Below are positions 1,707 through 36,750 of a DNA stretch of 64,000 nucleotides, in pieces. A program made the translations under genes and the position numbers. The notes under the pieces were generated by a model, which ran no database searches, was not told the DNA's origin, and saw nothing but the letters and a program-made list of their open reading frames with translations. The stretch is from Elusimicrobiota bacterium (GTDB lineage: Bacteria > Elusimicrobiota > Elusimicrobia > F11). Location of the stretch: the NCBI GenBank assembly GCA_022072025.1, contig JAJVIP010000011.1:81200-145199 (forward strand), written 5' to 3'. Each line of letters begins with the position of its first letter. Within the stretch, counting starts at the first letter, position 1.

Positions 1707-2574
1707 GACACAACTTTTGAAAATTGCACCGCTGACAGGTTAGAGAGGAATTGGGAAACGGCAGAGAAAAGGGATCGGATGGGAAATTTCTTTTGGTCTC
1801 TTCGAGCAGCGTGGATTCTTCTTCTATTTTAAGATGGGTGTTGATGAGGGCATCTTCATTGACGGTTGCATGAAAGGTCTGCCCTGTGAGCATGGACACG
1901 GCACATGCATTAATTTGTTCAGGCTCGGCCCCCCACACCTCATGGGCATAAAGTGCGGCCACCAGCAGCGAGGGTTCCGCCTCTGTGATGGAATTCGAGG
2001 TTTTCCAATCAATCAAGAAAAATTTGCCTTCTGTTTCTATGGCACAGTCAATTTTCACATAGGCCTTTATTCCATTCACATCAAATTCCAATAGCTCATC
2101 GACCACTTTCCAACATTCAGGCCCCAGTCCCGACAAACGTTTCAACCAATTGGATTGCGTAAACCAACGAAGGCTCTTCTCCACTGTATCCCAATGCCCG
2201 CGCCAAACTTCAGGTGCGATTTTCATTTCATATTCATGCTCTCTCAGGCGGCCCTCGGCCCCCTGCCCCTCACGAGAAGCCTTATACTGAACTCTCATCT
2301 TGTCTTTCAGGTTTTCAATAAGCCCTTCCGTTGAAGGAAGAGCGTTCCCCTGACGAAGGGTTTTAAGCAGTTCTCCCACCGCTTCGTGAATAAAGGACCC
2401 TGTCCACAAATGGCGGTTCTTTAGTTTTTTAAGAGCGGCGGCCTGTCCATAAACGGGGTCCACGCTCGCGTCGCGGGTCGCTTTCATGTGAAGAGCCAAC
2501 TTGCGAGAACATTCTTTGAGCATGTCCACTTGGGACCTGGACCACAGGGGCCGATCGGCCAATTCAACACTCAT
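1693..2574 (-). CDS. PD-(D/E)XK superfamily nuclease (Cas4/RecB-like fold) with C-terminal Cys cluster
   Basis: IDCAIE...FLIDWKTS resembles the D-EXK catalytic motif. The C-terminal CQRCNFQKLC plus earlier Cys residues resemble the Cas4/AddB Fe-S module. Overlaps UDG by 14 nt and the HK gene by 4 nt. Confidence 0.55.
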   Translation of the reverse strand: MSVELADRPLWSRSQVDMLKECSRKLALHMKATRDASVDPVYGQAAALKKLKNRHLWTGSFIHEAVGELLKTLRQGNALPSTEGLIENLKDKMRVQYKASREGQGAEGRLREHEYEMKIAPEVWRGHWDTVEKSLRWFTQSNWLKRLSGLGPECWKVVDELLEFDVNGIKAYVKIDCAIETEGKFFLIDWKTSNSITEAEPSLLVAALYAHEVWGAEPEQINACAVSMLTGQTFHATVNEDALINTHLKIEEESTLLEETKRNFPSDPFSLPFPNSSLTCQRCNFQKLCHGLR

Positions 2575-4880
2575 GGTTTTTTTCTCACGCGAATCGGGTA
2601 GAGGTCCAAAGCTGAATCACGCCATTGGCCGCGACGGTTGTCATGGGCCTCTTTTTCAGCGGCAATAAGGTCAGGGAGATAGCTTTCTTCATTGGGCAAA
2701 GTGGACACCAAAGCCAGCCCTTGTTTCACCAGTTCTTGGTTCACAAAAATTCCATCCACGAACACATAGGCCAACCACACCCCATCTATGTCCCGCTCTT
2801 GAAGGCCATATTTAAATTGAACTTCTTTTTTTTCAACCCAAGCGCGATTGGCGGACATCGCCTCAATGGCATGAAGGCTTCCTTTTTTGGGGACAATGAC
2901 GCCCAAATAACGAACCCGGGTCCCATCCTCCAGCTGAATCAAATTGGAATCTAGAACCCGCCGCACCGTGCCCCAATAAGGACGCGCCAACAACGGCGAC
3001 AATACCGCCAGGGAAACAAAAATGAACGCTGAAAAACCTCGAAAAATTTTCTTCCAGAAACCAGGGCGGCTTTGGTGAGGTTGAGCCGGGGAAGGCGCCG
3101 ACGCGGGAAGAGGTTGAGGAACAACAACAGAATTCGCCGAACGCTGAACACAGGGAACCGTAAATGAAAACAAACTGCCCGTTCCGCTCGTTGGGGGCGG
3201 ACTATGTACCCATAACTTTCCTTTGTGTAAATCCACCAAGGCCTGACAAATACTGAGACCGAGGCCTGTTCCGCGAATATCTAATTTTTCATTTGGTTTG
3301 AGTTGCACAAACCGATCAAAAATTCGTTTTTGGTCTTCCTTGGATATTCCGGGTCCCGTGTCTTCAACTTCAACAACGATCATGTTTTTCCCGGACTCTT
3401 CATACCGTTTGGCTCTCACCATTACTTTTCCCCCTGAAGGCGTAAACTTAATGGCATTTGAAATGAGATTGTTGACCACTTGCAGAATGCGATCCGAATC
3501 AACAAAAGCGGGAGGGATTTCTTCAATTTGTTGATACTCCACGTGAATTCCCCGGCCCTTGGACCATGTTTCCATGCTCACGGTGGCTTCCTTAAGAAGT
3601 GGTTCGAGCTCCACAACCTGGGGGCGAATGTCCATTTTCCCTGATTCCATTTTTGAAAAATCCAATAAATCATCAATAAGACGTGACAACCGGTCTACAT
3701 TTCTAACCGCCATGGAAAGCATTTTCTTTTGATCTTGAGTGACAGGACCAGCCGATTCTTCGAGAATGGCATTGACGGATAATTTCAATGCATGCACCGG
3801 CGCTCGCAGGTCATGAGTGACGTTCGCCATAAATTCATTTTGTAAACGTGTCAGCTCTTTTTGTTTCGTCACATCCGATAACACCGACACCATTCCTATG
3901 ATGCGGCCATTGGTATCTTGAACTGTGGCAGAACTGGCGCGAAGAGTTTTTTTGGCTTCTTGAGAGCCTAAAACTTGAACTTCTCGGGTGAGAGGGCGAT
4001 CGGTGGGGACGGTAAGATCCTTGGCCAGGGCCACCATTTGTTCCTCCCGAATGCCCTCCCACAAAGGCCGGCCCACACTTTCCCCCAATTTAACGCCATA
4101 AATCGATTCCGCCGCGGAGTTCATAAGCAACACTTTGCCTGTTTCGTCCACCACCACGACGCCTTCGGCGGTTTCTCCTATAACACTCTCGGTGCGGATC
4201 TGCTCATTGGTCAGGCGGGTTTTTTCCTGATTAAATTCCACCACCACTTTTTCAACCGCTCGATCAATTTGGTCTTTGACAAGATCCAAGGCGCGAGACA
4301 ACAATCGCCCCCGATCCGCCGGATCCAGAACAGATTTTTCGATTAATTTCTTGAGAAGATCCTGTAGGGGAAGGGTTTCAAAATCCTTTAAGCCTCCTTC
4401 TGCTCCCAGACCTCCAAGCGCGCCCATATCTTCTTTTTTCGTAACAGCATCGTCTTCGCCAATTTTGGCGTAACGGGCCTCGTTTAGTTTGATATGGGTT
4501 ACTTGCTGGGAGTCCAAAAACTCCGCCGCTTTAAGATTTGTTCGACGCATATCAGACGCGGAGGCCAACCGGAAGAAAGGAATCATTTCCGAGAGCGGAA
4601 TACCGCGAAGGAACGTGAGGGAATGGAGATTGTGAACTGTCAACAATTGCAAGAAGGGACGAAGTGACACATCGGGAGCATCGGTGGGTTTTTTTCCATT
4701 AACGATTAGTTTGGATTCATTGTTGGCCACCACCAGTTCTGAATCTTGGGCGAGCAATACCCCCAAAAGTCGATGAGATTCTTCAACCGCCCCTTTAACG
4801 GAAGGATGGTCAGGAGAATAGAGGGTCATTTGAGCCAACGTACGGCCTGTGGTTAAGAGAAATTCAGATAAATCGCTCAC
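2571..4880 (-). CDS. Sensor histidine kinase (PAS-HisKA-HATPase_c) fused via a C-terminal TM helix to a thermonuclease (SNase)-like domain
   Basis: H-box NEFMANVTHDLRAPV. ATPase N/G boxes NLISNAIKFT, VEDTGPGI and GTGLGLSI. A low-complexity Pro/Ala linker follows, then the TM helix FSAFIFVSLAVLSPLLA. The SNase-like tail is GTVRRVLDSNLIQLEDGTRVRYLGVIVP...VWLAYVFVDGIFVNQELVKQGLALV. No response regulator gene is adjacent. Confidence 0.8.
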   Translation of the reverse strand: MSDLSEFLLTTGRTLAQMTLYSPDHPSVKGAVEESHRLLGVLLAQDSELVVANNESKLIVNGKKPTDAPDVSLRPFLQLLTVHNLHSLTFLRGIPLSEMIPFFRLASASDMRRTNLKAAEFLDSQQVTHIKLNEARYAKIGEDDAVTKKEDMGALGGLGAEGGLKDFETLPLQDLLKKLIEKSVLDPADRGRLLSRALDLVKDQIDRAVEKVVVEFNQEKTRLTNEQIRTESVIGETAEGVVVVDETGKVLLMNSAAESIYGVKLGESVGRPLWEGIREEQMVALAKDLTVPTDRPLTREVQVLGSQEAKKTLRASSATVQDTNGRIIGMVSVLSDVTKQKELTRLQNEFMANVTHDLRAPVHALKLSVNAILEESAGPVTQDQKKMLSMAVRNVDRLSRLIDDLLDFSKMESGKMDIRPQVVELEPLLKEATVSMETWSKGRGIHVEYQQIEEIPPAFVDSDRILQVVNNLISNAIKFTPSGGKVMVRAKRYEESGKNMIVVEVEDTGPGISKEDQKRIFDRFVQLKPNEKLDIRGTGLGLSICQALVDLHKGKLWVHSPPPTSGTGSLFSFTVPCVQRSANSVVVPQPLPASAPSPAQPHQSRPGFWKKIFRGFSAFIFVSLAVLSPLLARPYWGTVRRVLDSNLIQLEDGTRVRYLGVIVPKKGSLHAIEAMSANRAWVEKKEVQFKYGLQERDIDGVWLAYVFVDGIFVNQELVKQGLALVSTLPNEESYLPDLIAAEKEAHDNRRGQWRDSALDLYPIRVRKKP

Positions 4881-5570: not shown

Positions 5571-7037
5571 TCATTTCGGAACGGTTTTCAATTTTTCCTC
5601 CCATTGGCACGCCAACTCAAAATCCCCCCTTTTTAAACTTTGATCGATAAGAATTTTCAAAACGGATCGGGCCAGAGGTACGGTTGGTCGGTTCCGTAAT
5701 GCGGTCACATAGGCTTCCTGGGCTTGCCCCCATCGCCCTTGTTGCTGTAGGGCCCCTGCATAGGAGGCCCAAGCAAATGCATTCTGGGGATCTTCTTGAA
5801 CAGACGCAAGCCAAAGCATTTCATCACTTCGCCAGTCTTTCGAGCGTGAAAATGTCAAACCCGCCAATATGAGAAGGACCAAACATCCCAACCATTTCAA
5901 GGTGGAGTGTTTTCCCAACAAAGAAAATCCCAAAGCCACACCGATCATGGGAAGATATAAGAACCGGTCAGCCGCAAAAGTGACCAGGGGAACAAATCCA
6001 CTGTGCGGGGCCCAAAAAACAAGAAATATGATGGATATCAATGATTTTGAATACCATTTCTTTGATTGTCCAAGAACCGGCATCAATAACAATAGGAAGA
6101 TGACCCCCCCGAACCAAAGTCCCATGGTTCCAAATCCAAGAGATTCGGGGGCTTGCACACTGACATTCAGAGAAACCGGCCAAAGAAGGGATTGAGCATA
6201 ATGAGCCAAAGCCACCAACCCGTCTCCCATTGAAACGAACCAAGACTCACTGCGATTCACAGGCTGAGCCCAATGCCCCAAAACCTGACGCCGGATAACC
6301 ATATAGATGAAACCCAGGGCAAACAATGGAACGATTTTCATTCCTTGCCTTGAAGAATTCGTATTTCGACCAATAAAATAAAGAATAACAGGCAGGCCGA
6401 GCGCGGTTTCTTTGGAAAAAAGGGCAATGAGATAACAAAGAAGGGCGCCCATATAATAAAAGGTGCCCTTGTTGGGATTCTTCAGGAATCTGTCCCATAG
6501 AACCAGCGTGCCCAAACATCCCGTGGCGCACATAAGAATAGACCGTTGTGATATCCATACCACACTTTCTACCTGGACAGGATGAAGAAGAAACAATCCC
6601 GTTCCCAAAAAAGCTCCCCACCATTGGCTGCGTTTGGAAAGGAAAACCCAAAGAAGAGTGCCATTCATGAAATGAAGAATGAGATTTACAACGCGAAAAC
6701 AGGCCGGGGTCAGACCACAAAGAACCTTGTTGATAGCAAACGTCAATGTGCTTAATGGACGATAAACATCCATTGGAATCCCACTGGCAGGGGCGGCACT
6801 GGTCAAGGCATCAGAAAAAAATCGTCCCAAGGGGAAGATATGATCCAAAGCAGGATTTTTAACGATGAACCACCAATCGTCATAAACAAAGGAATACCCC
6901 AACGAAGGGAGGTAAACCATCGCGGCCAAAAGGAAGAGAACCCACTTGGCTTTTGCTTCAACATTCATATGCAAAAATTTCAATCTCATAAACAACATCC
7001 AGTAATTATAATGACATAGATGACCACACTCACCCAA
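5571..7037 (-). CDS. Multi-pass membrane protein with C-terminal TPR repeats (TMTC-like putative O-mannosyltransferase, DUF1736-type)
   Basis: N-terminal region YSFVYDDWWFIVKNP is typical of TMTC/PMT-like GT-C proteins. About 11 hydrophobic helices. C-terminal TPR-like AWASYAGALQQQGRWGQAQEAYVTAL. The true start may be 6989 (MRLKF) or 6968 (MNVEAK) rather than 7037. Confidence 0.6.
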   Translation of the reverse strand: MGECGHLCHYNYWMLFMRLKFLHMNVEAKAKWVLFLLAAMVYLPSLGYSFVYDDWWFIVKNPALDHIFPLGRFFSDALTSAAPASGIPMDVYRPLSTLTFAINKVLCGLTPACFRVVNLILHFMNGTLLWVFLSKRSQWWGAFLGTGLFLLHPVQVESVVWISQRSILMCATGCLGTLVLWDRFLKNPNKGTFYYMGALLCYLIALFSKETALGLPVILYFIGRNTNSSRQGMKIVPLFALGFIYMVIRRQVLGHWAQPVNRSESWFVSMGDGLVALAHYAQSLLWPVSLNVSVQAPESLGFGTMGLWFGGVIFLLLLMPVLGQSKKWYSKSLISIIFLVFWAPHSGFVPLVTFAADRFLYLPMIGVALGFSLLGKHSTLKWLGCLVLLILAGLTFSRSKDWRSDEMLWLASVQEDPQNAFAWASYAGALQQQGRWGQAQEAYVTALRNRPTVPLARSVLKILIDQSLKRGDFELACQWEEKLKTVPK

Positions 7038-9392
7038 CCAAAAACCTGGATTGTTCTTCCCGTTTATTGGGATACCGAGTCATTTCTGGAGCTTCGAAAA
7101 AAAATACCCGTGTCCGCTTCCTACCTACTCATTGATGATTCCGCGGGTGAAGATTCGGCCATATCAAAATTAGAAAATGATCCCACGCTGCGTATTCTCA
7201 AATGTCCCCGCAACATGGGTCATCAAAAAGCCCTGGTGTATGGTCTGCGAACTTTGGTTCCCGAATTGGGAGACAATGACATCATCTTAACCATGGACAG
7301 CGATGGCGAGGATAAACCTGAGGATGTTCCTTTGCTTCAGAAGAGGCTGATCGACAACCCAGATAAAATTATTTTGGCTTACCGAACCAAACGAAACGAA
7401 TCCCTACCGTTCAAGATTCTCTACTTTTTCTTTAAGATTTTATTTCGTCTTGCCACAGGCCGTATCATACGTTCAGGAAATTTTGCGGGATTTCGAAGCG
7501 GCTTCATCAAACAATTCTTGGGCCATCCATTCTTTGACCTTTGCTACTCCTCGACACTGTTAAACCTCGGTGTCCCCATTGAATATATTCCGTGCGAAAG
7601 GGGCAGGAGATATCAGGGTTCCTCTCATATGAGTTATCTCAAACTCATTAAACATGGATTTTCAATGATGCTTCCCTTTCGAACTAAAATATATAAAAGG
7701 CTTCGCTTCGCGTTGTTCACCTTATTGGGAATTTTGGTGGGATCGGCCATTTTTTCCCAATCCAACACCTATGATGAACCCTGTTTCATTACGGCGGGAG
7801 TGACTCATGTGGCCACGGGGAAAATCGAATTGGAGACAGTCTATCATCCTCCCCTCCAAAAATATTTGATGGGCCTAGCGGTTTTATCGGCCTTTCCATC
7901 TTTTCCAATGGGGCTTCATCATCTTAGAGAAATAGATCCATTCTTATACGGCCATAGGTTTTTCTATGAAAACCGAATTAAACCGGAATTTCTTTTAGCT
8001 TTGGGCCGCTTACCCACGTTATTTCTATCTCTGCTACTGGCCGGATTATTATTTGCCTGGGCCCAACGTTGGTTCGGAGAAGGGGGCGCCTTGTTGGCTT
8101 TAACCGCTTATATTTTGGAGCCAAATATTCTCGCCCATTCGAGTATCGCTTCTATGGACATCGGGGTCACCGCATTTATGTTTGCGGCCTGTTACTTTTC
8201 GCTAAAGTGGCACGAAGAAAAAAGAAGGCATGATATTTACCTCGCAGGCGCTTTCGCAGGGTTTGCCATGGCCACAAAACTTTCCGGGGCATTCGTTTTT
8301 TTTTGGATTGCGATTCTTCTTTTAACTCTCCCTCTTTTTGACAACGAAAAAAGGTTTGTATTAAAGAAACCTGTTTTTTATTGGACCTTCAGCAAGACTT
8401 TGGTCGCGGTTTTATTTTGCGCTATCGCAATGATTGTTTTGATTTATCAAGTCCGCTATGCGGGAATGTTTTTGGATCTTTTGAAAGGAATGGTGGAAGT
8501 GGTTTTTGGGGACCATCCCACCCAGAGATATCCAAATTTTTTCCATGGCCAGAATAAATGGGGCGGGTGGTGGTATTACTTTCCAATCGCATTTCTTATT
8601 AAAACAACTCTGCCTTGGTTGATCTTACTGGGTTTATCCCTGGCGGTGGTGCCTTGGAAAAAAAAGGGGCCATTGCTTCTATTGTGCGGATCTTTCTTGT
8701 TGGTATGTTCCATTTCCGACAAACACAACGGCCTTCGATATTTTTTACCAGCGTTCCCATTCTTTTGTCTTTTAATCGGAGGGTTGGCGCCTGCTCTCGG
8801 GGCAAAACGCTGGGCCCGTTGGTTCATAAGTGGAATGTTGATGTGGATGGGAATCGAAGTGGGATGCTTGTTCCCCAATTGGTTGACTTATTTTAATCAG
8901 ACGGTCGGTGGGCCGTCACAAGGATACAAATGGTTGGTGGATTGCAACCTTGATTGGGGCCAAAATATGCCACAACTGCGAAGTTATTTAAAGAATCATG
9001 GAAATCCAGAAGTGATTGTGGCCTGTTTTGGAACAGTTAACCATGAATATTATCTGGGACCTCATCAAACATTGATTTTCGATCACAACACAACCAATGG
9101 CCGAACAAAACACATCAACTCTCAATCACCAGAAAGAGAATGGTTGATTGTCAGCGCCACACTTCTTCAAGGTTTTGGTCTGTCAGATCCCAAAGTTTTT
9201 TCTTGGTTGCAACAGAAAACTCCCTTAGCTCAAGTGGCCAACAGTATTTTCATTTATGATGTGACCCATGACGCGGAAAGCCAATTCAAAATTGGCGAAA
9301 TCTATCACCGCAATGGGCAAAGCGCTTATGCCGATCGGCAATTGCAACGCGCCAAAGACATTATTTCCCAATACAAAACTGCCGGAAAATAG
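7020..9392 (+). CDS. Fusion protein: N-terminal GT2 polyprenyl-phosphate sugar synthase (Dpm1/ArnC-like) plus C-terminal GT-C PMT/ArnT-like glycosyltransferase
   Basis: N-terminus VLPVYWD...DSDGEDKPEDV (GT2 DXD region). The remaining ~550 aa are polytopic with PMT/ArnT-like loops. The 5' end overlaps the divergent TMTC-like gene. Confidence 0.7.
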   Translation: MTTLTQPKTWIVLPVYWDTESFLELRKKIPVSASYLLIDDSAGEDSAISKLENDPTLRILKCPRNMGHQKALVYGLRTLVPELGDNDIILTMDSDGEDKPEDVPLLQKRLIDNPDKIILAYRTKRNESLPFKILYFFFKILFRLATGRIIRSGNFAGFRSGFIKQFLGHPFFDLCYSSTLLNLGVPIEYIPCERGRRYQGSSHMSYLKLIKHGFSMMLPFRTKIYKRLRFALFTLLGILVGSAIFSQSNTYDEPCFITAGVTHVATGKIELETVYHPPLQKYLMGLAVLSAFPSFPMGLHHLREIDPFLYGHRFFYENRIKPEFLLALGRLPTLFLSLLLAGLLFAWAQRWFGEGGALLALTAYILEPNILAHSSIASMDIGVTAFMFAACYFSLKWHEEKRRHDIYLAGAFAGFAMATKLSGAFVFFWIAILLLTLPLFDNEKRFVLKKPVFYWTFSKTLVAVLFCAIAMIVLIYQVRYAGMFLDLLKGMVEVVFGDHPTQRYPNFFHGQNKWGGWWYYFPIAFLIKTTLPWLILLGLSLAVVPWKKKGPLLLLCGSFLLVCSISDKHNGLRYFLPAFPFFCLLIGGLAPALGAKRWARWFISGMLMWMGIEVGCLFPNWLTYFNQTVGGPSQGYKWLVDCNLDWGQNMPQLRSYLKNHGNPEVIVACFGTVNHEYYLGPHQTLIFDHNTTNGRTKHINSQSPEREWLIVSATLLQGFGLSDPKVFSWLQQKTPLAQVANSIFIYDVTHDAESQFKIGEIYHRNGQSAYADRQLQRAKDIISQYKTAGK

Positions 9393-10698
9393 CGCTGAGG
9401 ACGTCCTCGGTTATTTCTTCTCCAGTGATTTGTCCCAACTCTTGAAGAGCCGCGCGAATATCGAGGGCCATCGCTTCCTCTGATTCTTTTTGATCCACAG
9501 CCTTCATTGCTTGCAACAGATGCCCTTTGGCTTTTTCCAAATGTTTCGCGTGCCGAAGGTTGGTAATGACCAAGGTTGATTCTGATTCTTTAGAAGAACC
9601 TTGCACTTTGTGCAAGACGGCCAACTTGAGTTGGGATAGCCCTTGACCGTTCTTGGCTGATACCACAACCCCCTCCGGCCACTGGACCTGAAGACCGCAA
9701 TCGGCTTTGTTGAGAACAACCACCGTGTTGCGATCCTTTAAACGGGCCAGCAAATCCTGATCCTCCCGCGTGAGAGGTTGACTGGCGTCCAAAACCAGTA
9801 GAAGGATATCGGCGTGAGCGTGAGCTTGCTCGGCCCGGGCGGTTCCAAGAGATTCCACTTCATCGGTGGTTGACCGCAAACCCGCCGTGTCAACGAGCAC
9901 AATCGGGAATCCCTCCCATTCCATTTTTTCCTCCAAGGTATCTCGTGTCGTCCCTGGGACGCTGGTCACAATCGCTCGATCTTGGGCCAACAAGGCGTTA
10001 AACAACGAAGATTTCCCCACATTGGGTTTACCGGCCAAAGCCACGCGAAGACCCTCACGAAACCATCGGCCTTTGACGCTGGTCGATAGAAGATCTCCCA
10101 AATCTTGCAGGACGCTCGTTAAAGAAGATTTCATTTTGTGTTGATCAATGAGCGGAAGCCCCTCTTCCGAAAAATCGAGGTTGGCCTCCACGTGGGCCAA
10201 CAAATCGATAAGCGGGGACCGAATTTTTTTTATTCGATGGGAAAGCTGGCCTTTCAATTGTTCTGTGGCGACAGCCCTGGCTTTGGTAGATACCGAATGG
10301 ATCAGTTGGGCCACCGCTTCTGCTTGGGCCAAATCCATTTTTCCGTTTAAGAAGGCGCGTTCCGTAAATTCACCGGGTTGAGCCATACGAGCGCCACTCG
10401 ATTCACAGAGTTTGACCACCTCTTTTAGGATGACCGGGCTGCCATGACAAGAAAATTCCAATACATCTTCACCGGTGTACGAATGCGGGGAACGAAAAAC
10501 GGAAGCAATCACTTCATCCACGCCTGCAATCCAACCATGATGGAGGGTGTGGGAAGGGGCTTCAGAAATCTTTTTTTTCGACTGGAAGAGGCGATCTCCA
10601 ATGGAAAAGGCTTGAGAACCGGACAACCGGACAACACCCAGTCCTCCTTCCCCAAGGGGAGTGACAATGGCGACAATGGTGTCGTCAGAGTGATTCAT
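9361..10698 (-). CDS. mnmE: tRNA modification GTPase MnmE (TrmE)
   Basis: N-terminal IVAIVTPLGEGGLGVVRLSG. G-domain GKPNVGKSSLFNALL...DTAGLR...NKAD. C-terminal CIGK. Follows yidC as in the canonical cluster. Confidence 0.95.
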   Translation of the reverse strand: MNHSDDTIVAIVTPLGEGGLGVVRLSGSQAFSIGDRLFQSKKKISEAPSHTLHHGWIAGVDEVIASVFRSPHSYTGEDVLEFSCHGSPVILKEVVKLCESSGARMAQPGEFTERAFLNGKMDLAQAEAVAQLIHSVSTKARAVATEQLKGQLSHRIKKIRSPLIDLLAHVEANLDFSEEGLPLIDQHKMKSSLTSVLQDLGDLLSTSVKGRWFREGLRVALAGKPNVGKSSLFNALLAQDRAIVTSVPGTTRDTLEEKMEWEGFPIVLVDTAGLRSTTDEVESLGTARAEQAHAHADILLLVLDASQPLTREDQDLLARLKDRNTVVVLNKADCGLQVQWPEGVVVSAKNGQGLSQLKLAVLHKVQGSSKESESTLVITNLRHAKHLEKAKGHLLQAMKAVDQKESEEAMALDIRAALQELGQITGEEITEDVLSAIFRQFCIGK

Positions 10699-10707
10699 AA
10701 AAGAAGG

Positions 10708-12303
10708 CTAAGCGGTGGTTTCGGGTGAAGGACTTTTATGAACGCCCAACAATAGTTGCAGAGAAATGGTGGTTAAACTGTTGACACACCAATAGAGGAC
10801 GAGCCCCGCTGGCAACTTATGAAACATAATCGTAAACATGATGGGCATAAACATCATGACCTTCGCTTGCGCCGGATCGGCCACAACCGCGGTCATTTTT
10901 TGTTGAAGGAACATGCCCGCCCCCATAATAATAGGAAGCACAAAATAGGGGTCGTAAACTCCCAAATCTTTGATCCAGAAAATCCATGGCGCCCCGCGCA
11001 ACTCATAGGCGACATTCAAGGTTGAATAAAACGCGAAAAAAACCGGAATTTGAAGCAACATGGGAAAACACCCTTCCATGCCCATAAATTTCATTCCGTT
11101 TTTCTTGTAAAAATTAAAGGTTTCGACCTGTAAACGTTTGGGGTCGCTCTTGTATTGCTCTTGAAGTTTTTTGATGTGCGGTTGAAGCTCCCGCATCTTG
11201 GCAGAATGTTGGAGATTCTTTCGGGTGAGTGGGAAAACAAGCAATTGAATACAAAAGGTCAATAAGATTATCGCCCAACCATAATTCCCTGTTAAAGCGC
11301 GAAAGAAGTTGAGGCTTTTAAGAAGAATTTTTGCGATCACACCAAAAAAACCAAAATCGACGGCTTGATCGAGCCCTTTTCCAAATTTCTTTAGATCGTC
11401 ATAGGATTTGGGCCCTGAATAATAGTGAAACCGCAACTGTCGGGTTTCGCCCGCGCCCAGTTCAATATTTATCGGAACCGCCACCAAAGGAGGATGGATG
11501 CGGTCCGCCACCACCTTAAGCCCCGTTATCAGGCCCTCAACAGGGATTAAGGCCGATAAAAAATGATGATTATCCAATCCGACCCATTGGAACGTATCAT
11601 TGTCGATCAAATCGATATTTCTGGAGAACACAAATCCTGGCTTCCAAGACTTAATCCGCGCCGCCAATCCCAACGCTCTTGTCTCGGCTTGAACCGCACT
11701 TTGATTCTTTTCGTCATAGGCGAGGTTCACATCATGTTTATCGACACCATTCCCCAAAGGAATGAACATTTGGAGCGATTGGCTGTTTTGGGTCGGGTTT
11801 GAAAAAATCAATGAAATACTGTGGAAAGGAGGCGTGGCCAAGAGTTGAATTTCTTTTTTTAAACTCAGTCCATTCGGCAGCAGGCCTATAAAAACGGCGT
11901 GGTTCTCAGAGATTTTTTCTGCTGAAAAATTGACTTCCCGAAACGTTTCCAATGGTGAAAATTGCCGATGTTTTTCCGGCACCACCAGTTCTGTCCAATG
12001 ATTTTTTTCATGGATTTGCCAACTCGCCACTCGAGCCCCTCGACTGAGGATCGATACTTTTGTCTTGTCGGCTTCAAGAATTGTAAGAGTTTCTTTCTCA
12101 ATTGCAGGAGTTCTCGTCTCAGATAGTGAAGGGCGGCTCATAACCGGTGGAGGGGTCGCAGGCTCAAGTGTTGAAGGTGCCGTCCTGGACGCAACCGTCT
12201 TGGTGGGACGAGAGCCGTAACGACTCATGACAAATGTTTCCCAAAACATCAGAAAACCCATCATAAACACGGCAGCTATAATCAGGTTTAAATTTTTATT
12301 CAT
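10708..12303 (-). CDS. yidC: Membrane protein insertase YidC
   Basis: N-terminal TM, periplasmic domain, then a conserved 5-TM core (FMPIMFTIMF, CVNSLTTISLQL). Sits between yidD and mnmE. Confidence 0.93.
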   Translation of the reverse strand: MNKNLNLIIAAVFMMGFLMFWETFVMSRYGSRPTKTVASRTAPSTLEPATPPPVMSRPSLSETRTPAIEKETLTILEADKTKVSILSRGARVASWQIHEKNHWTELVVPEKHRQFSPLETFREVNFSAEKISENHAVFIGLLPNGLSLKKEIQLLATPPFHSISLIFSNPTQNSQSLQMFIPLGNGVDKHDVNLAYDEKNQSAVQAETRALGLAARIKSWKPGFVFSRNIDLIDNDTFQWVGLDNHHFLSALIPVEGLITGLKVVADRIHPPLVAVPINIELGAGETRQLRFHYYSGPKSYDDLKKFGKGLDQAVDFGFFGVIAKILLKSLNFFRALTGNYGWAIILLTFCIQLLVFPLTRKNLQHSAKMRELQPHIKKLQEQYKSDPKRLQVETFNFYKKNGMKFMGMEGCFPMLLQIPVFFAFYSTLNVAYELRGAPWIFWIKDLGVYDPYFVLPIIMGAGMFLQQKMTAVVADPAQAKVMMFMPIMFTIMFHKLPAGLVLYWCVNSLTTISLQLLLGVHKSPSPETTA

Positions 12304-12478
12304 ATGGGTCCAAGCCTCCGTTTCCCCAGGGCGCGCAACGAATCAATCGCTTCAATCCAAAAAACAAACCCCACAGGCCTCGCGCTTTCACGGCCTCCTT
12401 CATGTATTCCGAACAACTCGGGATATATCGGCATCGCCCCCCCAAGTACGGAGAGAGGGCCCATTGATAGAAGGACAC
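12296..12478 (-). CDS. yidD: Membrane protein insertion efficiency factor YidD
   Basis: 60 aa MSFYQWALSPYLGGRCRYIPSCSEYMKEAV... matches the YidD/haemolytic-domain signature (PSCSEY). Overlaps the yidC start by 8 nt. Confidence 0.8.
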   Translation of the reverse strand: MSFYQWALSPYLGGRCRYIPSCSEYMKEAVKARGLWGLFFGLKRLIRCAPWGNGGLDPYE

Positions 12479-12527
12479 AAGTGAACAAAGGTAGCGAGAC
12501 AGGAAAATTCCAGCGGGGTGGAAATTT

Positions 12528-12662
12528 TTAGGCGGAAAGTCGTTTTCGTTTTTTAAATCGACGGCGACTTAAGACCCCTCGCCCGCCAGAAGTCTTCATG
12601 CGAGCGCGAAACCCAATTTTCTTTTTTCTACGACGTTTGTTTGGCTGATACGTTCTTTTCAT
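12528..12662 (-). CDS. rpmH: 50S ribosomal protein L34
   Basis: Manual translation gives [44 protein letters not shown] (44 aa), which is unmistakably L34. Below the ORF-track size cutoff. Confidence 0.9.
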
Positions 12663-12848
12663 AAGGCGCGGAGTCTAACCTTTTGCATTGTTCAAGTGCA
12701 ATCGTTACGAATTTTTTACCAAACCTTAAGAGAATCTTAAGACCGATTTTTTATACTCATTTCAATAATAAGGAAGAGGTGGCTCTGGCGCCCCCGGTTT
12801 TTCTTCCAGTTTAAGTGTTGTGTCCCTGATGCCACTTCACAAAGCAAT

Positions 12849-15800
12849 GTGGGGGCGTTCGTGTATACTCAACACGCTCGGCGAAAAGTCGGGCTCTTTG
12901 TTTCCTTCATATATTTCATCAGCCAGTGCGCGCTGGCGCATACGATGGAATTGAACCTCCTTAAAAACCGCTCGCATCCGCTCCTCTTTAACCCGCCCCT
13001 ATCTCTTCCCGCATCAATCGGGACCTTCCGCAAGCGAAATGCCGGTCACTCCGGTTTGACTGTCATTCACATCAGCGATATCCACCTAAACCACGAAGCC
13101 CAGGAGAACATCGGAAATATGGTCACGCAATTGATGAAAGCTGGCGAAGTCCGACTGGTGGCATTGGAAGGCGCTTTTGAAACCATTCACATGGATCGTT
13201 TTCGATCTTTTAGCGATCAAGACGCCCTCCGCCGCGCGGCGAAGTATGCGCTCAAAAAGAACCAAATTTCTGGCGCGGTTCATTCTTGTTTAACCTTTGA
13301 TGGAAAGGCGCCTGCATTGGTGGGCATCGATGATGAAATCAGTTACAAAACCAACATGGAGGCCTACCGCCAAGCCCACGCCCTGATTCCCGCAATGAAG
13401 AGTTCACTTAAAGAGGAACGTGCGTATAATAATAAGGAGGCAGAACAGTTATTCGGCCCGGAGTTATTGGCACTCTACAACCAATCCATCGCATACCGAG
13501 CCAACCAGATAAATACGGGAACCTATCTCCGCTTTTTGTCTGACGCTGGAGCAGACCTTGCCCTCGAATTGGAAACCTTTCTGGCTGCCTCAGAGATTGA
13601 ATCCGCACTCGACTTCTCACAAGCGGGCCGCGAGCGGACACTATTTTTTGAACGTCTGGCCGTATCTTTATCAAGGCAAGCCGTCAGGGATTTGGAAAAT
13701 AAGAGTTCCGCTTTTCGCTGGGGACAAATCAACCAAGCTGGTTATTACAGTTATCTAAGGGAATTGAGCAAAAACGTTGGCCTTGATCTGGCTCATTACC
13801 CAGCTTTCGCGGAATACGTTCGTTACATCCTTCTTTCCAACGACATCAACGTGGAGAAACTGTACCGATCTTTGGATGAAACGGAAGACCGTTTGTTCAA
13901 GCAGCTCATCCAAACACCACTTGAGCGAGCGGTGGTGGCCAAATCAAAACGTCTTGCTCTCAGTGAAAAACTTGTGGATTTCTCACTGACACCGGAGGAA
14001 TGGAAGGAATACTGTAGAAGCGAGCCGATGGCCCGTCCGACCTCACGGGAACTGCAACCATTTGAATCGTTCTACCGAGAAGCTGAAAAGCGTGACCGAA
14101 AGATGGCGGAAAACCTCCTAAAGGCAGTACATGGTGCAGGAAATAATCAATCCCATCAGGGGCCAAGTACTGTCGTTCTGGTGACCGGCGGCTTTCACGC
14201 GCGCGGAATTGAAGAGATTTTGACCAAAGCCGGAGCAACTGTGGTTTCTTTCGTCCCGCGGATCACCAAAGTGGAAACCGTGTCCGGCGCGGAAAATTTG
14301 AGTCTGTTCGTTCAAGAAAAGGCTCCGCTGGAAAAACTCTTCGAGGGACAAAAACTTTTCCTCTCCCAAAATCCCGCCAACTTAATTCATCTTATTCCAG
14401 GAATAGCCGCAGTGAAAGCGGTCACCACCCCCGCTGTTCCGGCGCAGCAAGTGGTGGATGGCTTGCTGCCGCAGGGGCATGGCTCGCGCATGACCGCTCG
14501 AAAAAAAGGGAATGAAGTGCTGGTCACTCTCCAATATCGGGGACAAAATGAAACCACGGCCTACCAAGTCGATCCGCAAGGAAACATCCAATCCGATCGC
14601 CGCATACGGCCCAACCCACTCCCCGAACTGCTGGCGTTGACGCTTACGCTTTGGTTGGGAACGTCAGTCTTTATCAACCCAGCCGCCTTTATCCTGCAAC
14701 TCGCATTCACAATCGCGGCAACACGGCTGGTGTGGTTTTCCTCAATATTCGTTCACGGTCTTGGGCATGTGGTGTTCAAATGGTGGGTTGATAAAAATTA
14801 TCGGATGAGCTTGACCGAGGCCGCAGAAGGAATAACTTTAAGCGAATTTTTTCTTGGCCTGCTCCCGTTCGCGCCGATCTTTACGCCATGGTTGTCGAAT
14901 CGGATCAGCGTTGCTCCTGGCGACCCTGACCCCGAAAAGGTTTCCTTTAAAGCGCTGGGCGGGCCGGTATTCAATATTTTTTCGGCAGGCGCCGCCGCGG
15001 GAGCGCTTGTCTTCCTCAGCCGTTTCCCGGGCCATCCCTTCTATCTCTCCGCGCTCTTGTATTTGTTTCTTGTTCTCAACTTTGTTTTTCTGGCTGCTTC
15101 GGTGTCGGACTTTGAATCCTTCGCCACGGGCCTGGCCCCGGATGGGTTTGCCTGCGGGTTTCTGGATTATTTTTCCCCGCTCCGCAAGCTGATCGGCGGC
15201 GAATCCCGGTTCACATACGGTCCGATGTACCGGAACCAGCAACTTGTTCGCCAGCAAAAGGAACAACGACAATATTCAAATGGAAGATGGACCGGCGTTA
15301 TTCAACGCGCGGTCGAACAAATCACCACAACCACCAAAATATTGAGCAACCGCGGCACCCAAGCCTATGGGTTTGAGGTCAAATTGCGCACACCCCAAGG
15401 CGCCGTGGTATTGGCGGGTTTGAAAGACGTGAATCCAAAACGAGCCACGCTTCACCGCCGACTCGCCGAAGACCTCGTGAAAATCCTCAACCGGGCCATC
15501 CTGTCCGGGCTGACCGTATTGGATGATTTTTTTTCCTATTCATCGCACCTGCGATTTGGAACCTCTTCCGCGCCTTCGAAAATTGAAACGCACCCGCACG
15601 CCAGTCCCGAACAATGGGTGGAGAGATATAACTGGTCCGATCCTTCCCGCGCCATCCGTCAAGTTCGTGAGATTTTCCAAATCAGCATAAAACACAACGG
15701 GGACAACGATGGCATCAAAGATATTGAGGAAGTTCTCGAAATGTATCCCTTTTATGTATTCGGGAAAAATTATTCGTTCAAAGAGATACGACGGCAGCTG

Positions 15801-18800
15801 AACAGAATTCTATATAGGGATCCCACCCGCGGTGATTCGCCCGTGATCGCTTCTTTGCTCTCCCTGTTCATCACCCAAGGCCGTTTCGACGCCGCGGCTC
15901 GACTGGCTTACATCCAAATGGCCGATACGTTCCAGAATGCCTTTCAGGACCTCGATAATCCAAGCAAAGTTGATCGAATCGCAAAAACTTGGGGCGCCGC
16001 GTTTGAATCGATCTTTAAAAAACACCAAGAACATATTTTTGAAAGGAGCGAAATCGGTTGGACGCCGAATGTGGCGTATATCAAACAGGTGTTTTTACCG
16101 GCGCTTAAAAATGCGTTGGGCCACAACCGACAAATCGTTGAGGACCCTTATTTAAGGGCCCTTTTCACTCATGAAGAAAACTTTGATGCGTTCATTCAAT
16201 CCACCGTGCATTTGTTTCTCTACAACGACACCTACCGTGGGATCCAGATGATGGTCTCCTCCGCCCAATCCTCAAGCACTTTCGGTCTTTCAGTAAACAA
16301 CACGCTGGAACCAAAAAAGAATTTCTGGCTCGCCAAAGGTCAACCGGCCGCGATGGGCCACAACCCCGCGACCGGCGAAATCATCACCGCCTCCGACCCC
16401 GGAGCGGTCTTGGGGGCGTTAAACGAAAATTCGCGGATCCTCACGTTTAATGACAGTCAAGGTGAAATCGTCGTCTTGGACATGGAAGATCCCTGGTCGC
16501 CTCATATGTCCATTTTTTCCCTCAGCGCCCATCGTGAGCTGACGTCGGAAGAAATCGAATCGCGTTGGGTGAATCTTGAAAAAAATCCTTACATCAAGAT
16601 TCCGGATAAAAACGGCAATGGCACATCCAACCTAAAAAAAGATTTGACCGACTTAAGTGCGGTTTTGGCCAACATCCACGATAGTTTTGACTTGAAGCAC
16701 CGAAACAATCCACGGAAACCTTCAAATCGGCTGTCGGCCGATCGCCTTAAGAAATGGCTGGTTGAAAAGGCCAATAATTTTCATTTCAAAACAGAAGCAA
16801 AAAGCCAAATGGCCGATATTGTTTTTATTGCCGAGGGTTCCACCCACGACGTTCTCTTGAGAAAAGCCCATGATCTGTCCGCGGTATTCCCCGGGCTCAA
16901 TATTCAAGTCATCACGGGGAACGATTACATGCGAGACAGCGAATCCTATTTCAGCGGATCGGGCAAAGATTTTTCCATGGGTAAAAATACTCTTGTTTTC
17001 TGCGCCAGCCAATCCGGGATGACGTTTTCCAACGTGGAGTCGGTCCGAGACGCTGAATATCGAAGGAGGAAGGGCCAATTAATGGACGTCTTTATCATGA
17101 CCGGGGAGTGGTTCTCCGTCATGGGGGACTCGCTGGGCCAGGAATTTTTTCCGGATTCCGAGTTCAGCGGCCGCCTCTTCAGCAACATGAGCGGCCGAAG
17201 GTACTCCGAAGCCGCCACGATGGCCACCGCCACCGACTTTTTTTTCAGCGAATTGTTCTTGGATATTTTTTCCGACATAAGCGATCTGCAGCCCTTCAAT
17301 ATGAAATTGTCAAAAGAAGGAGTGGCACAACTAAAAAAACAGATCATACCGCTCATCAATACCGCCATTCCGGAACTCACCGGGGTTGATGCCAATAAAA
17401 ACTTGGTCCCATCGGACGTTCATCGGCGCCTGTTGGAAAGGGGTTGGTATCTTTCAGACAGCGTGTCGGAGCAGTTGTTCATGATTTCAATGCTGCGAAT
17501 TTATACCTTTGTGTCCGTCACGCTTCATCTCCCCATTTTTAGATTGATGACAATGATCCTGGTCGGGGCGGTGCTCTTGACGACTGGATTGCCATCTTGG
17601 AGTTCCTTGTTCGATGGAACGTTGATGGCTTTTTTGGGGCTTGCGGGGGGAGTTTTATTCCATTTCGCAAACATTTTGGATGCCCTTTTCTACTCTCACC
17701 AGGACATCCTTTTTACCTACCTGATCCGGTTGCTCCAAGGCCGGCCCATTCGCGCGCGGATCGGTCCGCGGTTTTTGGCCATCGGCGGGCCGCACAGTCG
17801 TCTTCTTCGTGAATATTTTAGGGCGTCCGTTTTGGAGGCGCCAGGGGTTCTTCAATTTGCGGGAGTGGACGGAGCGGATTTGGATGGTGATTTCATGCAC
17901 CGATTCAAGGACTCCAACCGCGGAGCCCTGGTGTTTTTCCATATAGACGACTCCGAATCACCTGAACCATCACATCAGTCGGATGCCACCTCCGCAAGAA
18001 TGACTTTCAATCAGACCAACGGCGTTCAAAATTGGGGTGTTGGGCCGGAAATCATCATCAATTCGATTGCCCCGCAAAAGGAGTCCCAGTACGTGGTTCC
18101 ATCTGTCGCGGTGGACAACTCCGAGGGCCAGCCGGTTGGAGGATATTCCAAAAACGACAGCGTTTTTAACGACCTTCATTCCCGGTGGTTCAATGAACTG
18201 AAACTCTTGGTAAGTGGTCAGGTGGTGGCGGCGGAAATGTCGGACAATTTGTCCAAGGCGCGAATGCGGTTTTACGTGCGCCGGTCCGATTCCCCGCTCC
18301 AAATCTTTTTGGAAAATATGGCTCGGCCGGTGTCCGCCGCCTATTCCGCCATCGCCTTGAGAGCGAATGCCATCATGATGAAACGGTTTTTCCGGAGCGG
18401 TCAAGAATCCCGCATTTTTGAGCCCGGAAAAGGGCAAAGCGGCCTCACTGTGTTCACCACCCAAATCATGCCGCCCCACCCCCTGGACAAACAAGCGGCC
18501 GAAAGAGATATTTCCGCCATCGCCGATCATTTGCGCAATTTTGGTTTGAATGAATCGATGCCGTGGGTGCCCGAGTCCGGGCCCATCGCTGTCGCCATGG
18601 CAAGGCTTTATGATCCAATTCTGGCTGTCCACAAAAACACGGGAGGTAACGAGAGAGCGGTGGCAACAAATGCCGCGCCAGCCACCGCTTTGGGGAGCGG
18701 TTATCCTCAGCGAAAATCCAACACAAGACGTTACTCATGGGGGATTTTCGGCGGGAATGGCTCCACGCTCTATTCGGGTTGGATGATTGGATTTATATTG

Positions 18801-25958: not shown

Positions 25959-27356
25959 ATGATGATCACAAGCAAAACAAACGAAGAACTTTGGGATTTT
26001 GTCCTTGGCCAACTTAAACCCGAACTTAAAGACGAAACATTTAATCTGTGGCTGAAACCGCTGAAGGCGGTAAAAAACGAAGAGGGTCAATTTGTGCTTC
26101 GCGTGCCCAATCGATTTTTCTCTGATTGGATTAAAGCTCATTATCAAACCCGCATTGAAAACTTGTTGTCGGAGTTTTTGGGAAGCCAAATCAAATTAAG
26201 TTTTGAAACCCAAGCCGATGAATCAATGTTGCCTGTCCCCACTCAATACAAACCCTCAACCGACATCAAACTAACCTCCTCTTCATCTACCAAAACCAAC
26301 GCTTTTGCCGACGAAATCAAAATAGAAGCCAAATATGCGTTTGATAATTTTGTGGTGGGACCTTCCAACCGATTCGCTGAAGCCGCCGCCGAGGCCGTGG
26401 CGCGCGACCCAGGACGGACTTACAATCCGCTTTTCATTTATGGAGGCGTGGGGCTCGGAAAAACTCATTTGCTTCATTCGATCGCCCGTCACATACTTAA
26501 AAATCAACCCAACGCCAGAATCACCTACGTTCCCAGCGAACGTTTTATTAATGAATTCATCGATGCTATTCGTTTTGAACGAATGAAAGAATTTCGATCC
26601 AAGTACCGGGGGCTGGATTGTTTGCTGATTGATGACATCCAATTTCTTATGGGAAAAGAATCTTCTCAAGAAGAATTTTTCTACACGTTCAACACCCTCT
26701 ATGACTCGCGCAAACAAATTGTGATCTGCTCTGACCGCCCCCCCAAAGAAACCTTGGTCGGGGATCGGCTCATTTCTCGGTTTGAATGGGGCGTCATAGC
26801 CGATATTCAACCGCCGGATCTGGAAACGCGCATCGCTATATTAAGGAAGAAGACCGCTGAATCCGGTCAACAAGCCCCCGATGACGTGATTTTGTTCGTT
26901 GCTTCCCATATCAAAACGAACATTCGAGAATTGGAAGGCTCTATTACGAGAATAATGGCCTACGCAAATTTGACCGGTTTTCCATTGACAGTCGATACCG
27001 CTCGAACTGTTTTAAAAGACATTTTAACAGGCCCTGACCATGCGGCACCTGTAACGATTGAGCAAGTTCAAAAAGTGGTGGCGCGACATTTTAATTTGGA
27101 CCTACGAGACATGAAATCCAAACGTCGCACCGACGCCATCGCGTTTCCCCGACAAGTGGCCATGTATTTATGCCGAACCTTGACCGAACTTTCCACCATT
27201 GAAATTGGGGCGGGTTTTGGCGGCAAAGATCACACAACGGTTATGCACGGCTGCAGTAAAATCAAAAACAAGCTTAGTGGAGACCCTTATTTTGTAGCGT
27301 TGGTTAATAAAATCACACAAGATATTCGAGAGGAAAGCCTGCTTATAACGCCTTAA
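25959..27356 (+). CDS. dnaA: Chromosomal replication initiator DnaA
   Basis: N-terminal domain ELWDFVLGQL...NLWLKPL. AAA+ Walker A GGVGLGKTHLLH. Sensor and box VII regions. C-terminal DNA-binding domain ...AMYLCRTLTELSTIEIGAGFGGKDHTTVMH. Confidence 0.97.
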   Translation: MMITSKTNEELWDFVLGQLKPELKDETFNLWLKPLKAVKNEEGQFVLRVPNRFFSDWIKAHYQTRIENLLSEFLGSQIKLSFETQADESMLPVPTQYKPSTDIKLTSSSSTKTNAFADEIKIEAKYAFDNFVVGPSNRFAEAAAEAVARDPGRTYNPLFIYGGVGLGKTHLLHSIARHILKNQPNARITYVPSERFINEFIDAIRFERMKEFRSKYRGLDCLLIDDIQFLMGKESSQEEFFYTFNTLYDSRKQIVICSDRPPKETLVGDRLISRFEWGVIADIQPPDLETRIAILRKKTAESGQQAPDDVILFVASHIKTNIRELEGSITRIMAYANLTGFPLTVDTARTVLKDILTGPDHAAPVTIEQVQKVVARHFNLDLRDMKSKRRTDAIAFPRQVAMYLCRTLTELSTIEIGAGFGGKDHTTVMHGCSKIKNKLSGDPYFVALVNKITQDIREESLLITP

Positions 27357-36576: not shown

Positions 36577-36665
36577 GGTTTTTGATGGAGGGGTCGCATA
36601 GTGGCCTAGTGCGCTGGTTTGCTAAACCGGTATACGGGTTATACCGTATCGAGGGTTCGAATCCC
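36577..36665 (+). tRNA. tRNA-Ser (anticodon GCU)
   Basis: Manual fold: acceptor GGAGGGG / CCCCTCC, U8, D-stem GCA/TGC with a GG loop, anticodon stem CTGGT/ACCGG around loop TTGCTAA (GCT), a long variable arm (TATACGGGTTATACCGTATC), T-arm GAGGG-TTCGAAT-CCCTC, discriminator G. No encoded CCA. Confidence 0.85.
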
Positions 36666-36750
36666 TCCCCCTCCGAATTTGAGGTACTTACCGGGCACAG
36701 TTTTGGCCAAATCTCGCCTATGGACGAATTATTGGCAACACAACCTGAAA

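What the first reader, a model, noticed from the sequence alone, without database searches (positions are those of the whole stretch)
12296..12662. rnpA (RNase P protein) is missing from the rpmH-rnpA-yidD-yidC-mnmE cluster
rpmH (12528-12662) is followed after only 40-50 nt by yidD (12296-12478) and then yidC and mnmE, all on the minus strand. In most bacteria rnpA sits between rpmH and yidD. There is no room and no ORF for a ~120-aa basic protein here. The organism may encode rnpA elsewhere, have a highly divergent form, or use a protein-only RNase P (HARP-like) as in Aquificae and scattered other lineages.
Basis: partly seen in the sequence, partly recalled or inferred. Interest (0 to 1): 0.55.

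Follow-up and report, generated by a model that had tools for sequence, protein, structure and literature searches.

The report
rnpA deleted from Elusimicrobiota rpmH operon
In a whole group of uncultured Elusimicrobiota bacteria, the gene for the protein part of RNase P is missing from its near-universal place next to the ribosomal protein L34 gene; the only other bacteria I found with this layout have given up the classical RNase P, but whether these bacteria have done so could not be settled from the sequence available.

Summary
On the minus strand, rpmH (12528-12662) is followed after 49 nt by yidD, then yidC and mnmE. No frame holds an RnpA-like ORF, remnant or nested gene.

This is not an assembly accident. 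The window comes from an uncultured Elusimicrobiota bacterium, and all 9 related loci that show this region have rpmH directly followed by yidD. In other bacteria, 103 of 107 loci have rnpA there, including sister Elusimicrobiota (Endomicrobiia and others).

Three of the four exceptions are Thermodesulfovibrionales. That lineage is known to lack classical RNase P components and to carry the protein-only enzyme HARP. The literature reports the same reduced order, rpmH-yidD-yidC, for Aquifex.

I found no rnpA, RNase P RNA or HARP in about 74 kb of this organism or about 100 kb of relatives. No HARP labelled Elusimicrobiota turned up in the parts of the databases I could see. Whole genomes could not be searched.

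My estimates:
- True loss of RnpA: about 0.45.
- Relocation of rnpA elsewhere in the genome: about 0.40.

The searchable literature does not mention this. A scan of seven named MAG assemblies would settle it.

The parts
12528..12662 (-). rpmH, ribosomal protein L34 (44 aa), first gene of the operon
   Evidence: Pfam PF00468, E 8e-19, full length. Orthologues lie in the same position in all clade loci.
12479..12527 (-). Spacer between rpmH and yidD, where rnpA sits in most bacteria. It is 49 nt to the GTG start and 25 nt to the homologous CTG.
   Evidence: Read directly from the sequence. There is no RnpA profile hit in any frame. The equivalent gaps in relatives are 6-111 nt.
12296..12502 (-). 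yidD, membrane protein insertion efficiency factor. The canonical-start ORF is 12296-12478 (GTG). Homology and the aligned start codon of relatives extend it to CTG 12502-12500.
   Evidence: Pfam PF01809, E 7e-23, with the match starting 6 codons upstream of the GTG. Frame translations and the DNA alignment with L002 and L004 support the longer form. Its stop overlaps the yidC start by 8 nt.
10708..12303 (-). yidC, membrane insertase (531 aa)
   Evidence: Pfam 60KD_IMP E 2e-52 and YidC_periplas E 3e-14. It is 45-67% identical to clade orthologues and at most 37% identical to sister Elusimicrobiota that carry rnpA.
9361..10698 (-). mnmE (trmE), a tRNA modification GTPase. It starts 9 nt after the yidC stop, with no jag/khpB between them.
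   Evidence: Pfam TrmE_N, MnmE_helical and MMR_HSR1. jag is absent from 10 of 10 clade loci.
12663..12680 (-). Conserved 18-nt stretch immediately upstream of the rpmH start codon (GGTTAGACTCCGCGCCTT)
   Evidence: Nearly identical in the window, L002 and L004. Its function was not tested, and the consensus scan found no sigma-70-like promoter.
25959..27356 (+). dnaA, marking the replication-origin region. It is followed by dnaN, recF, dciA, gyrB and gyrA.
   Evidence: Pfam Bac_DnaA, E 4.5e-67. In L005, L006, L084 and L094 dnaA is directly divergent from rpmH.

Best explanation
Shown: an ancestor of a family- or order-level clade of uncultured Elusimicrobiota cleanly deleted rnpA, and also jag/khpB, from the origin-proximal operon rpmH-rnpA-yidD-yidC-jag-mnmE. 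What remains is rpmH-yidD-yidC-mnmE. yidD now starts 6-111 nt after the rpmH stop and is probably translated by coupling to rpmH.

Inferred: I consider it slightly more likely than not that these bacteria have no canonical RnpA anywhere in the genome. They would then resemble Aquificaceae and Thermodesulfovibrionales, the only other lineages I found with this exact layout. In that case they would mature tRNA 5' ends with a protein-only RNase P, either HARP or something else, encoded outside this window.
For: 1. All 9 clade loci that show the region lack rnpA, against 103 of 107 other loci that have it. The clade loci come from different assemblies, with GC content of 44-62%.
2. Sister Elusimicrobiota keep rpmH-rnpA-yidD-yidC-jag, so the absence is a derived loss. 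This was seen in Endomicrobiales, GCA_042562855.1, GCA_020523885.1 and metagenome loci L086-L099.
3. Three of the four non-clade exceptions (L109, L116, L159) are Thermodesulfovibrionales/Nitrospirota, shown by an exact L34 match to MCK4910435.1. That group is reported to lack both RNase P components (PMC4779614) or to encode only HARP (PMC6380272).
4. A 2024 review states that Aquifex aeolicus and A. pyrophilus have this region reduced to rpmH-yidD-yidC (PMC10941002).
5. All 7 Elusimicrobia-type rnpA genes I looked up sit in the canonical context; none is relocated.
6. No rnpA, rnpB or HARP occurs in the window, in its 10-kb extension, or in the relatives' loci.
Against: - RnpA is close to universal in bacteria.
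- Only about 74 kb of this organism and about 100 kb of relatives were seen, so a gene elsewhere would have been missed.
- No replacement enzyme was found. None of the HARP sequences I could see named is from Elusimicrobiota: two lists of the best 120 hits, and 20 of the 197 family representatives.
- A published table of 751 HARP-positive genomes has no Elusimicrobiota, although it appears to cover mainly isolate genomes.
- Known HARP-only bacteria come mostly from hot or extreme habitats, whereas this clade's MAGs carry names suggesting a fen (fen_), a bioreactor (MBR) and similar moderate sources.
- Elusimicrobium minutum is not among the complete genomes reported to lack RNase P components.
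Confidence: 0.45

Rival explanations
1. rnpA has simply moved. The clade keeps an ordinary RnpA and RNase P RNA elsewhere in the genome, and only the operon linkage to rpmH was lost.
For: RnpA and rnpB are essential and almost universal. The review says rnpA is near rpmH in the majority of genomes, which means not in all. Only 2-4% of a genome was inspected. No HARP could be tied to Elusimicrobiota. Other Elusimicrobiota have normal RnpA.
Against: Among 116 loci with rpmH next to yidD, I found no lineage with this layout that is known to keep rnpA elsewhere. The three clear exceptions belong to a lineage that lacks RnpA. All 7 Elusimicrobia-type rnpA genes I looked up are in the canonical context.
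Confidence: 0.4
2. The RNase P RNA is retained, but the protein subunit is unrecognisable or has been replaced by a non-homologous protein. Alternatively, the clade uses a protein-only RNase P that is neither HARP nor PRORP.
For: No HARP was seen for this phylum in any sample. The habitats are moderate, unlike those of most HARP carriers.
Against: There is no positive evidence. No candidate lies in the conserved operon. The conserved SNase-like domain of the neighbouring sensor kinase has lost its catalytic residues, and the UPF0158 protein matches no solved structure by sequence. No RNase P RNA lies in the held sequence.
Confidence: 0.1
3. Assembly or gene-calling artefact: rnpA was dropped by misassembly, or it is a frameshifted pseudogene.
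For: None, apart from the metagenomic origin of the sequence.
Against: The same junction appears in 9 independent assemblies from different projects, with gaps of only 6-111 nt. The six-frame profile search finds no fragment.
Confidence: 0.01

Closest known systems
Aquifex aeolicus / A. pyrophilus rpmH-yidD-yidC locus (Aquificaceae, HARP-only RNase P)
   Same: The reduced gene order is the same, with rnpA excised between rpmH and yidD (PMC10941002).
   Different: Aquificaceae are hyperthermophiles with a demonstrated HARP (Aq_880) and no rnpB. Here no HARP was found, genome-wide absence of rnpA and rnpB is not shown, and the organisms appear to be mesophilic.
Thermodesulfovibrionales (Nitrospirota) rpmH-yidD-yidC loci
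   Same: In my own sample (L109, L116, L159), rpmH is followed directly by yidD with a gap of 26-92 nt, with no rnpA and no jag. The lineage is reported to lack RNase P ribonucleoprotein components and to carry HARP.
   Different: It is a different phylum, has an unusual L34 N-terminus, and has many HARP genes annotated in databases. No HARP genes are seen for Elusimicrobiota.
Canonical rpmH-rnpA-yidD-yidC-jag-mnmE operon of sister Elusimicrobiota (Endomicrobiia and other MAGs)
   Same: The same operon, next to dnaA, with homologous L34, YidD, YidC and MnmE.
   Different: Those lineages keep rnpA (PF00825) and jag. Their YidC is only 32-37% identical to the window's, against 45-67% within the clade.
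Thermus rpmH nested inside rnpA
   Same: It is another way in which rnpA can appear to be missing downstream of rpmH. This resemblance rests on my own knowledge of Feltens et al. 2003.
   Different: Tested here: both alternative frames over rpmH contain stop codons, so no nested gene exists.

Membership tests
Canonical bacterial rpmH-rnpA operon (RnpA, Pfam PF00825) | An ORF of about 110-160 aa with the Ribonuclease_P domain (RNR motif) directly downstream of rpmH | tested here: not met
   The gap is 25-49 nt. The RnpA profile finds nothing in a six-frame search of the window or L001-L008. No RNR-like motif occurs anywhere in the window.
Canonical bacterial rpmH-rnpA operon (RnpA, Pfam PF00825) | rnpA present somewhere in the genome | not testable with these tools
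   It is absent from 64 kb plus 10 kb of this organism. The rest of the genome is not available.
Thermus-type overlapping rpmH/rnpA | A long ORF in another frame spanning rpmH | tested here: not met
   Both alternative frames have stop codons.
RnpA-less bacteria with a reduced rpmH-yidD-yidC locus (Aquificaceae, Thermodesulfovibrionales) | rpmH directly followed by yidD and yidC | tested here: met
   conserved in 9 of 9 clade loci.
RnpA-less bacteria with a reduced rpmH-yidD-yidC locus (Aquificaceae, Thermodesulfovibrionales) | No RNase P RNA gene (rnpB) in the genome | not testable with these tools
   None in the window at the gathering or E<=1 thresholds, and none in L082 or L002-L008. This is only a small part of any genome.
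RnpA-less bacteria with a reduced rpmH-yidD-yidC locus (Aquificaceae, Thermodesulfovibrionales) | A HARP gene (PIN_5, PF08745) present | tested here: inconclusive
   No HARP in the 1.49 Mb of loci held at that point, using the verified Aq_880 sequence as query. No Elusimicrobiota name appears among the HARP hits and representatives I sampled or in the published table. Genomes of the clade were not searched.
YidD (PF01809) | The conserved YidD domain with its cysteine-containing motifs | tested here: met
   E 7e-23 over profile positions 2-66 of 67.

The most novel reading that the evidence does not exclude
This mesophilic Elusimicrobiota clade has neither RnpA with RNase P RNA nor HARP. It would then process tRNA 5' ends with a kind of RNase P not yet described, or with an RNase P RNA that works without RnpA.
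Probability: 0.1. Interest if true: 0.95.

Novelty: new member of a known kind. Interest (0 to 1): 0.6.

Why it matters
RNase P is essential, and its bacterial form of one RNA plus RnpA was long thought universal. Aquifex was the exception, and it led to the discovery of HARP.

If this clade lacks RnpA, it would be another free-living bacterial lineage to have abandoned the ribonucleoprotein enzyme, after Aquificaceae and some Nitrospirota, and one that does not seem to come from extreme habitats. That would show that the switch is not tied to extreme habitats. It would also provide either a new HARP-only group or, if HARP is absent too, a lead to a new enzyme.

The analysis suggests a cheap screen as well. 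In my sample of 116 loci, direct adjacency of rpmH and yidD picked out Thermodesulfovibrionales (a lineage reported to lack RnpA) plus this clade, with one ambiguous Burkholderiales locus (L033) as the only other exception.

If rnpA turns out to be elsewhere in the genome, the finding is a minor operon rearrangement.

Tried and rejected
- **RnpA remnant or frameshifted pseudogene in the spacer:** rejected. There is no profile hit, and the spacers in relatives are short and not conserved.
- **Nested Thermus-type rnpA:** rejected because of stop codons in both frames.
- **rnpA elsewhere in the window or its extension:** Pfam scans of about 50 genes and a six-frame profile search found none.
- **RNase P RNA in the held sequence:** none.
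- **HARP in the held sequence:** none in 1.49 Mb.
- **Neighbouring conserved genes as substitutes:**
  - The SNase-like domain of the PAS histidine kinase (2571-4880) has lost its catalytic residues and lies beyond a predicted membrane segment.
  - The TPR protein (5571-7037) is missing from some clade loci.
  - The PD-(D/E)XK and UDG pair looks like a DNA repair module.
  - The UPF0158 protein matches no solved structure by sequence.
- **Finding a clade rnpA through the protein database:** the best 120 hits to an Elusimicrobiota RnpA profile were visible, and all 7 that I looked up were canonical loci of other organisms.
- **Finding a clade HARP through the database:** Logan-only candidates turned out to be Kuenenia (P0265) or to lie on a contig rich in multihaem cytochromes (P0269).
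- **Extending the organism's contig:** I gained 10 kb on the left and nothing on the right.
- **Literature:** no paper links Elusimicrobia or Elusimicrobiota with missing rnpA or RNase P. One search was wasted on badly chosen terms.

Full report
**What is in the window**

On the minus strand, four ORFs match Pfam models:

| Gene | Coordinates | Pfam evidence |
|---|---|---|
| rpmH | 12528-12662 | Ribosomal_L34, E 8e-19 |
| yidD | 12296-12478 | YidD, E 7e-23 |
| yidC | 10708-12303 | 60KD_IMP, YidC_periplas |
| mnmE | 9361-10698 | TrmE_N, MnmE_helical, MMR_HSR1 |

- The rpmH stop codon and the first canonical yidD start (GTG at 12478) are 49 nt apart.
- The Pfam YidD match begins 6 codons upstream of that GTG, and the frame stays open back to rpmH.
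- The start codons of relatives (ATG in L002, GTG in L004) align with CTG 12502-12500. The real gap is therefore probably 25 nt.
- yidD overlaps yidC by 8 nt, and mnmE starts 9 nt after yidC.

**Is rnpA hidden there?**

- I built an RnpA profile from 57 RnpA ORFs found in control loci, plus the E. coli and B. subtilis proteins written from memory.
- In a six-frame search with all filters off, the best hit across the window, L001 and seven related loci had E = 0.3 (the window's own best was 3.7). The same profile scores 1e-10 to 1e-41 on control loci.
- Both alternative reading frames across rpmH contain stop codons, which excludes the Thermus arrangement in which rpmH is nested inside rnpA.
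- No RNR-like motif occurs anywhere in the 64 kb.

**Where the window comes from**

- The YidC protein occurs on a 71.8-kb Logan contig from run SRR10609165.
- A scan of GTDB species genomes found its nearest relatives in seven Elusimicrobiota MAGs, with YidC 51-67% identical.
- The window is the replication-origin region: dnaA, dnaN, recF, dciA, gyrB and gyrA lie at 25.9-35.2 kb.
- In relatives L005, L006, L084 and L094, dnaA is directly divergent from rpmH, which is the classical arrangement.
- In the window and in L003, a giant ORF and a GAF-ANTAR regulator are inserted between them.

**The absence holds across the clade and is derived**

- Nine loci of the clade show the region upstream of yidC: the window, L002-L006, L084, L085 and L094.
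- They come from different projects, with GC content of 44-62%.
- All nine have rpmH followed directly by yidD, with gaps of 6-111 nt.
- Among 107 other loci in which rpmH and yidD are close together, 103 have an RnpA ORF between them (Fisher p = 9e-11).
- The nine clade loci share ancestry, so this reflects one old event.
- The nearest loci outside the clade (YidC 32-37% identical) all carry rnpA.
- A database search with their RnpA sequences returned proteins named as from Endomicrobiales, Endomicrobiia and "Elusimicrobia bacterium".
- Looking up seven of those hits showed the full order wherever the contig reached. This order is rpmH-rnpA-yidD-yidC, followed in L162, L165 and L171 by jag and mnmE, and in L164 by jag. 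One hit (L163) lay at a contig end, so only the genes upstream of rnpA were visible.
- The phylum's ancestral state is therefore canonical. This clade lost rnpA, and also jag, which is absent from 10 of 10 clade loci.

**What the exceptions are**

- Four of the 107 other loci lack rnpA.
- One is a Burkholderiales locus (L033) with a 289-nt gap and a weak RnpA-like hit.
- The other three (L109, L116, L159) share an unusual L34 that begins MGTYTTYRPH.
- The L159 protein is identical to L34 of Thermodesulfovibrionales and Nitrospirota MAGs.
- Thermodesulfovibrio yellowstonii is reported to lack both RNase P components (PMC4779614).
- Some Nitrospirae genera are reported to encode only HARP (PMC6380272).
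- My own HARP searches returned many Thermodesulfovibrionales proteins.
- So every other lineage I could find with this layout is one that has abandoned the ribonucleoprotein RNase P. This is the main reason to take the loss hypothesis seriously.

**The search for a replacement or a relocated gene**

- Pfam scans of about 50 genes in the window, and the precomputed Pfam labels on the genes of a further 10 kb to its left, show no Ribonuclease_P, PIN_5 or PRORP domain.
- Rfam finds only one tRNA in the window, even at E<=1, and nothing in the relatives' loci.
- I verified the Aq_880 HARP sequence against PDB entry 7F3E. It has no match in the 1.49 Mb of loci held at that point.
- The HARP family is small: 197 representatives at 50% identity among 1.84 billion proteins.
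- The named groups I could see were Aquificae, Methylacidiphilaceae, Kuenenia, Thermodesulfovibrionales/Nitrospirota, an Omnitrophica MAG and Thermoprotei. None was Elusimicrobiota.
- A published table of 751 HARP-positive genomes has no Elusimicrobiota either. It seems to cover mainly isolate genomes, so it says little about uncultured groups.
- These are samples, not an exhaustive search.

**Weighing the explanations**

- For true loss:
  - The layout matches lineages that lack RnpA.
  - The loss is old and clean.
  - No Elusimicrobia-type rnpA was found in a non-canonical context.
- For relocation:
  - RnpA is nearly universal.
  - Only a few percent of any genome was inspected.
  - No replacement enzyme was found.
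  - The habitats appear to be moderate.
  - Elusimicrobium minutum is not listed among genomes that lack RNase P components.
- My estimates:

| Explanation | Probability |
|---|---|
| Genome-wide loss of canonical RnpA | 0.45 |
| Relocation of rnpA | 0.40 |
| Something stranger (unrecognisable subunit, RNA alone, or a new enzyme) | 0.10 |
| Artefact | ~0.01 |

**Novelty**

- Full-text searches found no paper that links Elusimicrobia or Elusimicrobiota with a missing rnpA or an unusual RNase P.
- The layout itself is known from Aquifex. This is best described as a new, unreported member of a known kind of locus.
- Its importance depends on a simple genome scan that I could not run.

Noticed in passing
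window 12478-12508 (minus strand): The yidD start is probably misplaced. The first canonical start (GTG at 12478) removes about 8 conserved N-terminal residues. The start codons of relatives (ATG in L002, GTG in L004) align with CTG 12502-12500 in the window, which suggests either a near-cognate start or re-initiation after rpmH.
   Followed up: partly
window 10699-10707; clade loci L002-L008, L084, L094: jag/khpB, which lies between yidC and mnmE in sister Elusimicrobiota and in 89 of 153 other loci, is absent from all 10 clade loci that cover this junction. It is also absent from the three Thermodesulfovibrionales loci, although L109 ends right after yidC. Two RNA-binding protein genes have therefore left this operon.
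   Followed up: partly
window 12849-24992 (+) and 25170-25898 (+): A 4047-aa ORF with no Pfam domain, plus a GAF-ANTAR regulator, is inserted between rpmH and dnaA. Four relatives have dnaA directly divergent from rpmH. L003 carries a homologue of the giant protein that is 31% identical.
   Followed up: partly
window 2571-4880 (-): A sensor kinase (PAS, HisKA, HATPase) is followed by a predicted membrane segment and a staphylococcal-nuclease-like domain. It is 56-74% identical across the clade, more conserved than YidC. The nuclease catalytic residues (D21, D40, T41, E43, R87 of the S. aureus enzyme) are replaced, so the domain is probably not an active nuclease.
   Followed up: partly
window 12663-12680 (minus strand): The 18 nt directly upstream of the rpmH start codon (GGTTAGACTCCGCGCCTT) are almost identical in the window, L002 and L004, although the coding sequence has diverged. 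This may be a leader or promoter element. The consensus scan found no sigma-70-like promoter.
   Followed up: no
L109 1122-1262, L116 3881-4021, L159 3947-4087: Thermodesulfovibrionales L34 proteins have an unusual N-terminus (MGTYTTYRPH in place of MKRTYQP). Their loci show the same rpmH-yidD-yidC order without rnpA.
   Followed up: partly
window 36586-36676 (+): tRNA-Ser(GCU) is the only tRNA in the window and does not encode the 3' CCA. A sub-threshold Rfam hit, 'Plastid-psbl-rps4', on the opposite strand is the antisense of this tRNA and not a real element.
   Followed up: yes
window 9361-9392: The 3' end of a fused GT2/PMT-type glycosyltransferase gene (7020-9392, + strand) overlaps the 3' end of mnmE (minus strand) by 32 nt, in convergent orientation.
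   Followed up: no
L033 3879-4319: A Burkholderiales locus has a 289-nt gap between rpmH and yidD, and only a weak RnpA-like signal (E 2.7e-4) in a frame continuous with L34. This could be a degenerate or fused rnpA, or a sequencing error.
   Followed up: no
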